The notes beneath the pieces were generated by a model. That model saw only the letters and a program-made list of their open reading frames with translations. It had not been told where the DNA came from and did not search any database. The position numbers were made by a program, and so were the translations under genes. Below are positions 50,215 through 50,808 of a stretch of 64,000 nt of DNA, in pieces (position 1 is the first letter of the stretch; each line of letters starts with the position of its first letter). The stretch comes from a virus (lineage: Duplodnaviria > Heunggongvirae > Uroviricota > Caudoviricetes), in the IMG/VR virus record IMGVR_UViG_2711768037_000005, positions 1-64,000 of that record, one strand, 5' to 3'.

Positions 50215-50808
50215 ATGATTGCAGCCGAAAAAATCAAAAAGCGAAAGCGCGACAACTCTCTTCGTGACCTCTGGAGAACACCTGACTGGCTGTTTAATGC
50301 CATTCAACGTTATCTGGGAGTGACATTTGATGTTGACGTTGCCTGCAATAAGGACAATGCAAAGCTGCCTATTTTCATAGGCGTTGAGCGCGATGCTTTG
50401 AAATCTGAATGGGGGCAGCCAGGTACAATTGCCTTCCTCAATCCACCCTACTCCAAAATTTCCCCCTGGATTGATGCGGCTATACGTGAGCAGGCTCGCG
50501 GAGTTACAACAGTGATGCTAATTCCTCAATCCCTCGATACAAAGTGGTATGAGCGTGCAACAGAGTGTGCGAATGAGACGATTATTCTGTCTGGTGGCCG
50601 CGTAGCGTTTGTCGAGCCTGACGTCAATCTGGGTCAGGTAGAAGTAAACATCAACCCCGGTGGCAGTATGCTCGTTGTTTTTCGCGGATTCTGTCAGGAC
50701 GCTGGGCACTCTATAAGCAAGATCCCTTTGGACGTCATGAAAAGTCTGGGAGGGTATGATCCTGCGAATGTGATCAGGAAAAAAAGACCATCAAAGAAGG
50801 CAGCTTAG
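50215..50808 (+). CDS. phage-type DNA N6-adenine methyltransferase (Dam-like)
   Basis: DLWRTPDWLF N-terminal motif and catalytic NPPYS; start taken at ATG 50215 because ORF-track 50203 overlaps the upstream palindrome. Confidence 0.65.
   Translation: MIAAEKIKKRKRDNSLRDLWRTPDWLFNAIQRYLGVTFDVDVACNKDNAKLPIFIGVERDALKSEWGQPGTIAFLNPPYSKISPWIDAAIREQARGVTTVMLIPQSLDTKWYERATECANETIILSGGRVAFVEPDVNLGQVEVNINPGGSMLVVFRGFCQDAGHSISKIPLDVMKSLGGYDPANVIRKKRPSKKAA

What the first reader, a model, noticed from the sequence alone, without database searches (positions are those of the whole stretch)
50215..50808. Dam-like methyltransferase together with a GATC-dense origin
The element encodes its own GATC-type adenine methyltransferase candidate while its putative origin (35018-35102) contains six GATC sites in 80 bp. 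This suggests methylation-coupled control of initiation, or protection from GATC-targeting restriction, independent of host Dam.
Basis: inference. Interest (0 to 1): 0.35.

Follow-up and report, generated by a model that had tools for sequence, protein, structure and literature searches.

The report
Phage Dam-type methylase plus P1-type origin
This SSU5-like phage-plasmid carries a phage-family adenine methylase gene and a plasmid origin with six GATC sites that is a clear relative of the phage P1 origin; both are real, but the pairing is already known from P1.

Summary
Both observations hold. ORF 50215-50808 is an intact 197-aa member of the phage T1/VT2 "Dam" family (PF05869, TIGR01712) with the NPPY catalytic motif. 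It is 39% identical to the GATC-specific Stx-phage enzyme M.EcoVT2Dam. The six GATC sites at 35027-35085 are the densest cluster in the window; none of 300 simulations reached six in 60 bp.

The window is an SSU5/pHCM2-like phage-plasmid. Its origin is homologous to P1 oriR. RepA is 46% identical to P1 RepA. The order is the same: tandem DnaA boxes, GATC array, GC-rich spacer, five iterons, repA, further iterons. The GATC positions align with the annotated Dam sites of P1.

Methylation-coupled initiation is therefore well supported by homology. Independence from host Dam is not. Y. pestis pMT1 keeps the six-GATC origin but has lost the methylase. All sampled hosts are enterobacteria, which as a group carry Dam. 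The methylase is a separate transcription unit behind a conserved palindrome.

P1 already combines a Dam-dependent oriR with its own repressor-controlled Dam (Dmt). This is a non-orthologous new member of a known arrangement. GATC specificity is probable but untested. Interest is low to moderate.

The parts
50215..50808 (+). Orphan N6-adenine DNA methyltransferase, 197 aa, of the phage T1/VT2 'Dam' family (PF05869/TIGR01712). Motif IV NPPY is at aa 76-79.
   Evidence: AlphaFold model: pLDDT 83.8, pTM 0.81. Only remote fold matches to N6-adenine methyltransferases.
50107..50154 (+). Terminator-like hairpin followed by a T-run (TTTTATTT). It closes the upstream gene (49223-50032) and isolates the methylase as its own transcription unit.
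   Evidence: RNA fold -25.8 kcal/mol, z = -5.3, 0 of 200 shuffles fold as well. Stem bases are conserved in SSU5, a Klebsiella phage-plasmid and Cyrano.
50157..50185 (+). Sigma-70-like promoter TTGCCA-17-AAAAAT (with an extended TG) in front of the methylase gene.
   Evidence: The hexamers are largely conserved in four relatives. This is a consensus match only.
50186..50201 (+). Perfect palindrome AGGTAATCACTTACCT directly after the -10 hexamer and 13 nt before the ATG. Candidate operator of a phage regulator.
   Evidence: The arms are invariant and the 4-nt centre varies in window, SSU5, Klebsiella and Cyrano. The motif recurs: 10 hits at up to 2 mismatches against 1.57 expected, 0 of 100 shuffles.
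35091..35107 (-). Two tandem DnaA boxes (reverse complement TTATTCACA / ATATCCACA, one mismatch each) at the outer edge of the origin.
   Evidence: They align with the annotated DnaA site of P1 oriR.
35027..35090 (-). AT-rich array of (A)GATCC heptamer-like repeats holding six GATC sites, spaced 7, 10, 12, 12 and 14 bp. Presumed unwinding region and SeqA/Dam target.
   Evidence: Positions align with the Dam methylation sites annotated in P1 oriR. All six are conserved in Klebsiella, Cyrano, SSU5 and pMT1.
34990..35026 (-). GC-rich spacer (GCCGCGCCACG...CTGG) between the GATC array and the iterons.
   Evidence: Conserved against P1 oriR. AT content falls to 0.38-0.42 here.
34879..34985 (-). Five origin iterons (core CCGCTGACAGCATA on the + strand; the third is degenerate) at 21-23 bp spacing, ending 15 nt before the repA ATG. 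Equivalent to incC of P1.
   Evidence: families D1-D4. P1 has the same layout.
33770..34864 (-). repA, the iteron-binding initiator (Rep3 winged-helix domain). 46% identical to P1 RepA.
   Evidence: E = 3e-86.
33647..33769 (-). Five further iterons immediately downstream of repA, spaced 21 or 30 bp. Equivalent to the copy-control incA array of P1, which has nine.

Best explanation
The window is an SSU5/pHCM2-type phage-plasmid.

(1) The region 33647-35107 is a P1-type (RepFIB-like) plasmid replicon. RepA binds five iterons and host DnaA binds two tandem boxes. The duplex opens in the AT-rich array of six GATC-containing heptamers between them. By homology with P1 oriR, this array must be adenine-methylated to fire. 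After firing it is hemimethylated, bound by SeqA and held refractory until it is remethylated. In the plasmid (lysogenic) state, host Dam does this job.

(2) ORF 50215-50808 is an orphan methylase of the T1/VT2 phage 'Dam' family and most probably methylates GATC. It sits in the element's own DNA-metabolism block (ribonucleotide reductase, ThyX, DHFR, epsilon-type exonuclease, RNase H). It has its own terminator, promoter and palindromic operator. Its likeliest role is to top up GATC methylation when the element replicates faster than the limited host Dam can follow, that is, during lytic growth driven by its own Pol III-type replisome. Packaged genomes would then be fully methylated. They would arrive with a firing-competent origin, be immune to GATC-cutting restriction enzymes, and not be nicked by MutH.

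The origin and the methylase therefore share a target sequence, but the origin does not depend on the element's enzyme. This matches the arrangement in P1, which pairs a Dam-dependent oriR with a C1-repressed dmt, built here with a non-orthologous methylase.

What is shown and what is inferred:
- Shown here: family membership, origin homology, conservation of the GATC array, separability of origin and methylase, and the conserved regulatory architecture.
- Inferred: GATC specificity, timing of expression, SeqA and Dam dependence, and the biological pay-off.
For: Element identity:
- 98-99% nucleotide identity to roughly 110-kb non-mobilizable E. coli plasmids, 97% to phages PhiR41_1, CMS-2020a and Cyrano, and 78% to SSU5.

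Origin:
- RepA is 46% identical to P1 RepA.
- The order of elements is the same as in the annotated P1 record, which marks oriR, the DnaA site, five Dam methylation sites, incC, repA and incA.
- The core shows 77-83% blastn identity to the oriR of P1, P7, SJ46 and RCS47.
- GATC columns are conserved in a six-way alignment.
- Origin methylation is essential for P1 and ColV-K30 plasmids (PMC2865523).

Methylase:
- Pfam and NCBIfam scores exceed the curated cutoffs, and NPPY is invariant.
- 39% identity to the VT2-Sakai enzyme, which is reported as GATC-specific (PMC6602927).
- T1 Dam and VT2 Dam are only 33% identical to each other. M.Btr190III, 35% identical to T1 Dam, also makes G6mATC (PMC4996451).
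- PADLOC's best matches for it are 'orphan methyltransferase' models, followed by weaker Type II methyltransferase matches. The flanking ORFs have no Pfam match, and their PHROG families have unknown function.

Separability:
- pMT1 has the origin but no methylase.
- Distribution counts differ.

Co-conservation:
- Methylase, RepA and the GATC array are all present in SSU5, Klebsiella, Cyrano and a Providencia phage-plasmid.

Regulation:
- Terminator, promoter and palindrome are conserved.
- The P1 precedent of Odmt/Pdmt is annotated.

Own replisome:
-.
Against: - No experiment here or in the papers I could read shows the specificity of this enzyme.
- Its closest characterised relative is only 39% identical, and one family member shows off-target activity.
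- Expression timing is inferred from a sequence motif whose binding protein is unknown. The motif does not sit in a constant sigma-70 geometry at its other sites.
- The methylase is retained in all sampled intact SSU5-like elements, as far as Providencia (60% identity). This is compatible with a tighter functional link to the origin than I propose.
- GATC frequency in the window is at expectation, which says nothing for or against restriction pressure.
Confidence: 0.65

Rival explanations
1. One reading: the element's own methylase keeps its origin methylated, so initiation control is autonomous and independent of host Dam.
For: - Methylase, RepA and the GATC array are co-conserved in every intact SSU5-like element examined, including a Providencia element with only 51-60% protein identity.
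- The enzyme is probably GATC-specific.
Against: - pMT1 retains the six-GATC origin, is maintained in Y. pestis, and has no homologue of the methylase.
- The same origin core is found in about 1645 plasmids, against 722 with the methylase.
- P1-type and ColV-K30 origins rely on host Dam.
- All sampled hosts belong to Enterobacterales, which as a group carry Dam (established knowledge).
- The methylase lies about 15 kb from the origin, in a DNA-metabolism block, behind its own operator-like site.
Confidence: 0.12
2. The methylase has nothing to do with the origin. It targets another motif, or another substrate such as RNA, or it serves purely as an anti-restriction device. The shared GATC theme is a coincidence of annotation.
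For: - Specificity is untested and the nearest characterised relative is 39% identical.
- An Stx-phage methylase annotated as a GATC Dam (MT-A70 family, DPPW motif) preferred 16S rRNA once complexed with a partner protein (PMC10810198).
- The nearest solved folds to the model include RNA adenine methylases (PCIF1, KsgA, TrmM) as well as DNA ones, all remote.
- The element carries a second candidate DNA methylase, consistent with a general anti-restriction toolkit.
Against: - All three characterised PF05869-type enzymes that I could trace make G6mATC in DNA despite only 33-35% mutual identity.
- The rRNA methylase belongs to a different family and has a different motif.
- The upstream gene is cut off from the methylase by a strong terminator, so a co-transcribed partner subunit from that gene is unlikely.
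Confidence: 0.15
3. Copy-up switch. On induction, the element's methylase remethylates the origin so quickly that the SeqA-sequestered hemimethylated period disappears. The once-in-a-while plasmid origin then becomes a rapidly re-firing one that feeds lytic replication.
For: - The origin has the SeqA-type spacing of GATC pairs, 10-14 bp apart.
- The methylase appears separately regulated, together with DNA-metabolism genes.
- No separate lytic origin was looked for or seen in the window.
- Established knowledge: excess Dam shortens sequestration at oriC.
Against: - This is purely inferential.
- P1 uses a separate lytic origin (oriL).
- RepA handcuffing by the downstream iterons would still limit firing.
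Confidence: 0.08

Closest known systems
Phage-plasmid P1: oriR together with its own Dam-type methylase Dmt
   Same: - A phage that lives as a low-copy plasmid.
- The initiator RepA is homologous (46% identity).
- The origin has the same order of elements: tandem DnaA boxes, a GATC heptamer array (5 sites in P1, 6 here), GC-rich spacer, 5 iterons, repA, then a downstream iteron array.
- The element also encodes a GATC-type adenine methylase with an operator at its promoter.
   Different: - The methylase is not orthologous. P1 Dmt is annotated as a large bifunctional enzyme, with the CDS running 66412-68676. The enzyme here is a 197-aa PF05869 protein.
- There are five rather than nine downstream iterons, and the iteron sequence differs.
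- No par operon adjoins repA.
- Dam dependence has been shown experimentally only for P1.
M.EcoVT2Dam (Stx2 phage VT2-Sakai, nin region) and phage T1 Dam (PF05869/TIGR01712)
   Same: - Same Pfam and NCBIfam family.
- Same invariant residues: D18, W20, T22, P23, D41, A43, NPPYS, and G128-R129.
- Small, orphan and phage-borne.
- Both reference enzymes make G6mATC.
   Different: - Only 39% (VT2) and 25-27% (T1) identity.
- About 20 extra C-terminal residues compared with the VT2 enzyme.
- Different genomic context: a DNA-metabolism block of a phage-plasmid rather than a lambdoid nin region.
- Specificity here is untested.
RepFIB / ColV-K30 REPI and pMT1/pHCM2 replicons
   Same: - P1-like RepA with iterons on both sides.
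- Reported need for Dam methylation.
- pMT1, typed IncFIB by PLSDB, carries the same six-GATC core.
   Different: - pMT1 carries neither SSU5-type methylase. Ordinary RepFIB plasmids were not examined here.
- pMT1, SSU5 and Cyrano have a duplicated origin core and a different RepA/iteron allele. pECOH89-type and pLF82-type RepA are 48% identical (PMC3999498).
E. coli Dam / T4 Dam / DpnM (PF02086, alpha class), with oriC and SeqA sequestration
   Same: - Presumed same target, GATC.
- The origin array resembles the GATC-rich unwinding region of oriC and is expected to be read by the same SeqA and Dam.
   Different: - No Pfam PF02086 match.
- These structures are not among the listed fold matches.
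- Motif IV is NPPY rather than DPPY.
- The enzyme is an analogue of Dam, not a homologue at family level.

Membership tests
Phage T1/VT2 'Dam' family (Pfam PF05869, NCBIfam TIGR01712) | Profile score above the curated cutoff over the whole domain | tested here: met
   PF05869: 128.6 bits against 28.1, covering aa 17-177 of the 201-aa ORF. TIGR01712: 113 bits against 97.05. PHROG 111 'DNA methyltransferase': 2.2e-65.
Phage T1/VT2 'Dam' family (Pfam PF05869, NCBIfam TIGR01712) | Catalytic motif IV (N/D)PPY, together with the conserved N-terminal D-x-W-x-T-P and D-x-A motifs | tested here: met
   N76-P77-P78-Y79-S80, D18, W20, T22, P23, D41 and A43 are invariant against T1 Dam and the Stx-phage enzyme. 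N76, P77, Y79, S80, D41 and A43 are invariant and the rest nearly invariant across 38 homologues.
Phage T1/VT2 'Dam' family (Pfam PF05869, NCBIfam TIGR01712) | Methylates the adenine of GATC in DNA | not testable with these tools
   Inferred only, from characterised relatives at 25-39% identity.
Phage T1/VT2 'Dam' family (Pfam PF05869, NCBIfam TIGR01712) | Orphan: no cognate restriction endonuclease next to it | tested here: met
   The flanking ORFs (49223-50032 and 50993-51223) have no Pfam match, and their PHROG families have unknown function. PADLOC's best matches are 'orphan methyltransferase' models, with weaker Type II methyltransferase matches.
Canonical Dam (E. coli Dam / T4 Dam / DpnM; PF02086) | Sequence or fold membership of the alpha-class D12 methylase family | tested here: not met
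   Only PF05869 is matched. There is no PDB sequence relative. The listed fold matches are remote (TM 0.35-0.55): PCIF1, M.TaqI, KsgA, CamA and M.BseCI, not Dam, T4 Dam or DpnM.
P1-type oriR / RepFIB-like iteron replicon | Initiator homologous to P1 RepA | tested here: met
   46% identity over 278 aa, E = 3e-86. Rep3_N winged-helix domain.
P1-type oriR / RepFIB-like iteron replicon | Five directly repeated iterons at about 21 bp spacing just upstream of repA, and a second iteron array downstream of repA | tested here: met
   Upstream: 34879-34985 (5 copies, spacing 21-23 bp). Downstream: 33647-33769 (5 copies). P1 has 5 and 9.
P1-type oriR / RepFIB-like iteron replicon | Tandem DnaA boxes at the outer end, followed by a GATC-containing heptamer array | tested here: met
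   DnaA boxes at 35091-35107. Six GATC at 35027-35085. Aligned base for base with P1 oriR. 77-83% blastn identity to annotated oriR.
P1-type oriR / RepFIB-like iteron replicon | Initiation requires Dam methylation; hemimethylated core is bound by SeqA | not testable with these tools
   Known for P1 and ColV-K30 (PMC2865523; Abeles and Austin 1987 and Brendler et al. 1995, from my own knowledge; those papers were not held).
P1-style pairing (Dam-dependent oriR plus a repressor-controlled phage Dam) | Methylase gene silent in the prophage through an operator at its promoter | tested here: inconclusive
   A conserved palindrome abuts the -10 hexamer and recurs at other intergenic sites. The binding protein and its effect are unknown.

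The most novel reading that the evidence does not exclude
The element's methylase acts as a state switch for its own P1-type origin. It is silent in lysogeny, so host Dam and SeqA impose a refractory period. When derepressed on induction, it remethylates the six-GATC core almost at once and abolishes sequestration. The plasmid origin then becomes a rapidly re-firing origin that seeds lytic replication, or a transient copy-number burst. That would be an epigenetic copy-up mechanism in a family of phage-plasmids, some of which carry antibiotic-resistance genes (for example pECOH89 with CTX-M-15).
Probability: 0.1. Interest if true: 0.6.

Novelty: new member of a known kind. Interest (0 to 1): 0.22.

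Why it matters
SSU5/pHCM2-like phage-plasmids are common in clinical E. coli, Klebsiella, Salmonella and Enterobacter. The methylase alone matches 722 PLSDB records. Some of these elements carry resistance genes, for example pECOH89 with CTX-M-15.

Knowing that their plasmid origin is a P1-oriR homologue with a conserved Dam/SeqA-type GATC array gives a ready-made, testable model for their copy control. It predicts that they cannot be established in dam- hosts.

The element-encoded methylase is a candidate for keeping virion DNA fully methylated. That would matter for host range, because it protects against GATC-cutting restriction, and for lysogenisation efficiency.

None of this is conceptually new, since P1 set the precedent decades ago and the gene is already annotated as dam. 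The value is in transferring a known mechanism to a medically relevant family rather than in discovery.

Tried and rejected
- Non-specific adenine methylases of Mu-like prophages (Hia5, Hin1523). I considered these as an alternative identity and rejected it. They carry DPPY plus FxGxG and are related to classical Dam, DpnM and T4 Dam, not to PF05869 (PMC3299994).
- The Stx-phage 'rRNA methyltransferase' (PMC10810198). I checked whether it was the nin-region PF05869 enzyme. It is not: it is an MT-A70-type DPPW protein near the prophage end. I keep it only as a caution about Dam annotations.
- Sequence searches of the PDB, with the single protein and with a 5-sequence profile, found no solved relative.
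- Foldseek of a confident model gave only remote N6-adenine methylase folds, on both RNA and DNA substrates. It cannot settle specificity.
- GATC frequency as a clue to restriction pressure was uninformative: 280 observed against 260 expected.
- The three GATC sites inside the 3' end of the methylase gene (50721-50772) are within chance. Three was the commonest maximum count within 60 bp in the simulations.
- The primary P1 papers (Abeles and Austin 1987; Abeles et al. 1993) and the P1 genome paper were not held. A 2026 preprint on phage-plasmid heteroresistance could not be read.
- I did not cross-tabulate origin and methylase across all PLSDB or IMG/VR records. Only summary counts and five to six worked examples are available.
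Full report
**What the window is.** The 3 kb around the finding is 98% identical to about 176 non-mobilizable E. 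coli and E. albertii plasmids of roughly 110 kb. It is 97-98% identical to Escherichia phages PhiR41_1, CMS-2020a and Cyrano, and 78% identical to Salmonella phage SSU5. The origin region is 99-100% identical to plasmids such as p09EL50 of E. coli O104:H4 2009EL-2050 and to NZ_CP027358.1. The window is therefore an SSU5/pHCM2-type phage-plasmid. It encodes much of a replisome and a nucleotide-supply set of its own: DnaB-like helicase, primase, ATP-dependent ligase, Pol III alpha, an epsilon-type exonuclease, RNase H, RecA, ribonucleotide reductase, ThyX and DHFR.

**The observation: methylase.** ORF 50215-50808 is intact. It matches Pfam PF05869 'Dam' (2.4e-37) and NCBIfam TIGR01712 'phage N-6-adenine-methyltransferase' (1e-32), both above curated cutoffs. 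The ATG at 50215 is the start used in phage Cyrano and gives the 197-aa length of most full-length orthologues. NPPY and the N-terminal D-x-W-x-T-P and D-x-A motifs are invariant against T1 Dam and the Stx-phage enzyme.

**The observation: GATC cluster.** Six GATC sites lie at 35027, 35034, 35044, 35056, 35068 and 35082. This is the densest cluster in the window. None of 300 Markov simulations reached six in 60 bp, and about 0.02 such clusters are expected per window. Both halves of the observation are confirmed.

**What the origin is.**
- A gene on the minus strand (33770-34864) encodes a Rep3-type initiator that is 46% identical to P1 RepA (E = 3e-86).
- Five iterons (core CCGCTGACAGCATA, 21-23 bp apart) lie just upstream of it at 34879-34985. 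Five more lie just downstream at 33647-33769.
- Beyond the upstream iterons come a GC-rich spacer, the GATC array and two tandem DnaA boxes at 35091-35107.
- The GenBank record of P1 annotates exactly this order: DnaA site, five 'Dam methylation sites', five incC iterons carrying PrepA, repA, and nine incA iterons.
- Read side by side, the two sequences are alignable base for base across the core. For example, window 'atccacaggatagatcc' matches P1 'atccactggatagatcc', and window 'agatccccgatcgctgtaagccgcgccacgactgg' matches P1 'agatccctgatcgttgcaggccgcgccacgtctgg'.
- blastn finds 77-83% identity to the annotated oriR of P1, P7, SJ46 and RCS47.
- The six GATC sites are conserved in position in a Klebsiella phage-plasmid, Cyrano, SSU5 and Y. 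pestis pMT1. This holds even though Cyrano, SSU5 and pMT1 use a different iteron sequence and RepA allele.
- A Providencia element with 51% RepA identity still has four of them.

The origin is thus a bona fide P1-oriR homologue, and the GATC array is a conserved functional part of that origin type. A paper I could read states that origin methylation is essential for replication of plasmids P1 and ColV-K30, and that the initiator sites themselves lack GATC (PMC2865523). That is also true here. From my own knowledge, the P1 core binds SeqA when hemimethylated (Brendler et al. 1995), and P1 miniplasmids cannot be established in dam mutants (Abeles and Austin 1987). Those papers were not available to check.

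**What the methylase is.**
- The closest characterised relative is the nin-region methylase of Stx2 phage VT2-Sakai, M.EcoVT2Dam, at 39% identity over 145 aa. It is reported to target GATC (PMC6602927).
- T1 Dam, also GATC-specific, is 25-27% identical to this protein.
- T1 Dam and VT2 Dam are only 33% identical to each other.
- M.Btr190III, 35% identical to T1 Dam, was cloned and shown to make G6mATC with some off-target activity (PMC4996451).

GATC specificity thus spans the known diversity of the family, and this protein lies inside that range. GATC is the most likely target, at about three chances in four in my estimate, but it is not shown.

The enzyme is not a relative of E. coli, T4 or P1 Dam.
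- Pfam gives no PF02086 hit.
- No solved structure is related by sequence.
- A confident AlphaFold model (pLDDT 83.8, pTM 0.81) finds only remote N6-adenine methylase folds at TM 0.35-0.55. These include PCIF1, M.TaqI, KsgA, CamA and M.BseCI.
- It is an orphan. Its neighbours have no nuclease signature, and PADLOC's best matches are orphan-methyltransferase models.

Orthologues at 56-97% identity occur in phage-plasmid-sized contigs of Escherichia, Salmonella, Cronobacter, Enterobacter, Klebsiella, Xenorhabdus and Providencia. They also occur in 722 PLSDB plasmids, 712 of them non-mobilizable. The gene was already listed as 'dam' in the description of pECOH89 (PMC3999498).

**How tightly the two are linked.** Four points argue that the origin does not depend on the element's own enzyme.
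- pMT1 of Y. pestis is an SSU5-derived plasmid typed IncFIB. It keeps the six-GATC core and repA, but tblastn finds no trace of the PF05869 methylase or of the second methylase described below.
- The origin core is found in 1645 PLSDB records, including 63 from Yersinia and many P1-like plasmids. The methylase is found in 722, with none listed from Yersinia.
- Every host sampled is an enterobacterium, a group that carries Dam (established knowledge; Xenorhabdus is documented in PMC9570324, seen).
- The methylase lies 15 kb from the origin in the DNA-metabolism block and is a separate transcription unit.

That transcription unit has three parts.
- A strong terminator hairpin follows the upstream gene (-25.8 kcal/mol, z = -5.3).
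- A TTGCCA-17-AAAAAT promoter-like site follows the hairpin.
- The perfect palindrome AGGTAATCACTTACCT sits directly after the -10 hexamer.

In SSU5, the Klebsiella element and Cyrano, the palindrome arms are invariant while the four central bases differ. This is the pattern expected of a site bound by a protein dimer. The same motif recurs in the window (10 hits at up to 2 mismatches against 1.57 expected, 0 of 100 shuffles). Most hits lie in intergenic positions in front of DNA-metabolism genes such as nrdA and sbcD. P1 provides the parallel: its dmt gene has a C1 operator (Odmt) at its promoter.

On the other side, the methylase is retained in every intact SSU5-like element sampled, together with the GATC array. 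A functional connection is therefore likely, though not an obligatory one.

**Most likely mechanism.**
- In the plasmid state the origin works as P1 oriR does. RepA sits on the iterons and DnaA on its boxes. Opening occurs in the methylated GATC array. SeqA sequesters the hemimethylated product, host Dam resets it, and the downstream iterons control copy number.
- The element's methylase, probably GATC-specific and probably switched on with the DNA-metabolism genes, supplements the limited host Dam when the element's own replisome makes DNA quickly.
- Virion DNA is then fully methylated. It would be competent for oriR firing on arrival, protected from GATC-cutting restriction, and spared MutH nicking.
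- I put about 0.65 on this composite. The homology and architecture are shown. The specificity, timing and pay-offs are inferred.

**Rivals.**
- No link at all, because the enzyme targets another motif or substrate: about 0.15. The caution here comes from an Stx-phage 'Dam' of the unrelated MT-A70 family that turned out to prefer 16S rRNA.
- A copy-up switch in which the methylase abolishes SeqA sequestration on induction: about 0.08-0.10. This is the most novel reading not excluded.

**Comparison and novelty.** The arrangement works like P1, a phage-plasmid with a Dam-dependent oriR and its own repressor-controlled GATC methylase. The origin passes every sequence-level membership test for the P1/RepFIB type. 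The methylase passes the tests for the T1/VT2 family and fails those for classical Dam. So this is a new, non-orthologous member of a known arrangement, in a family whose genes are already annotated. A specialist would not be surprised. The practical value is a ready model for copy control and host range of a clinically common phage-plasmid family. Interest is 0.22.

**Seen in passing.**
- A second candidate DNA methylase with a DUF4942 domain (55685-57370).
- The dispersed palindrome motif.
- A duplicated origin core in SSU5, Cyrano, pMT1 and the Providencia element. In SSU5, Cyrano and pMT1 the repA-proximal copy has lost half of its GATC sites to GAAC or GACC.
- A probably over-long RefSeq start for repA.

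Noticed in passing
window 55685-57370 (+): A second candidate DNA methylase of 561 aa. It has DUF4942 (PF13708, 3.1e-20) at aa 130-295. Its C-terminal domain carries SAM motif I (LLEPHAGRGDL) and motif IV (VMNPPYS). It matches PHROG 6263 'DNA methyltransferase' at 3.5e-298 and PADLOC mad2 and Type II methyltransferase models. It is conserved at 44% identity in a Providencia phage-plasmid and absent from pMT1. Specificity is unknown.
   Followed up: partly
window 67, 16644, 31635, 35955, 40639, 50186, 57372 (16-bp sites): A recurrent palindrome, AGGTAA-N4-TTACCT (extended consensus roughly aAATAGGTAAnnaCTTACCTAT). Most copies are intergenic and just upstream of genes, including nrdA, sbcD, the methylase and an Ead/Ea22-like gene. 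There are 10 hits at up to 2 mismatches against 1.57 expected, 0 of 100 shuffles. It is likely the operator of an unidentified phage regulator that defines a DNA-metabolism regulon. Its position relative to sigma-70-like hexamers is not constant.
   Followed up: partly
L004 (SSU5) 2470-3270; L003 (Cyrano) 2480-3280; L008 (pMT1) 22500-23300; Providencia pPROV236-2 around 103170-103460: These relatives have two tandem origin cores upstream of repA. In SSU5, Cyrano and pMT1 the distal core has six intact GATC sites and its own five iterons. The repA-proximal core has the same heptamers decayed to GAAC or GACC, leaving three GATC. In the Providencia element both copies are eroded, to 4 and 3 GATC. 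The window and the Klebsiella element have a single core. Which copy fires, and whether the GATC-poor copy escapes sequestration, is unknown.
   Followed up: no
window 33770-34984 (-) versus 33770-34864 (-): RefSeq records annotate the initiator from the ATG at 34984, giving 404 aa. That ORF would start inside the iterons. The alignment with P1 RepA begins 32 residues after the ATG at 34864, and SSU5 and Cyrano annotate genes of about 1060 nt. The 364-aa start is the more likely one.
   Followed up: partly
L008 (Y. pestis pMT1) 41449-42126: pMT1 lacks both SSU5-type methylases. It does carry an unrelated beta-class 'DNA methylase' (DPPY ... FAGSGST) in a block with ArdA, DUF1380 and a large ParB-like protein. 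This looks like a conjugative-plasmid leading region.
   Followed up: no
window 5061-10379, 20795-24313, 27290-28363, 36085-52398: The element encodes a near-complete DNA replication and precursor set. It includes DnaB-like helicase, primase, ligase, Pol III alpha, RecA, SbcCD, RuvC, NrdAB, MazG, ThyX, polynucleotide kinase, DHFR, epsilon exonuclease and RNase H. It also encodes a CobT/AAA pair.
   Followed up: no
Providencia pPROV236-2 (L013-L015), whole record: GATC looks somewhat under-represented in this 38% GC relative: 251 sites in 103 kb, against roughly 360 expected from base composition. In the window it is at expectation. This was not tested with shuffles.
   Followed up: no
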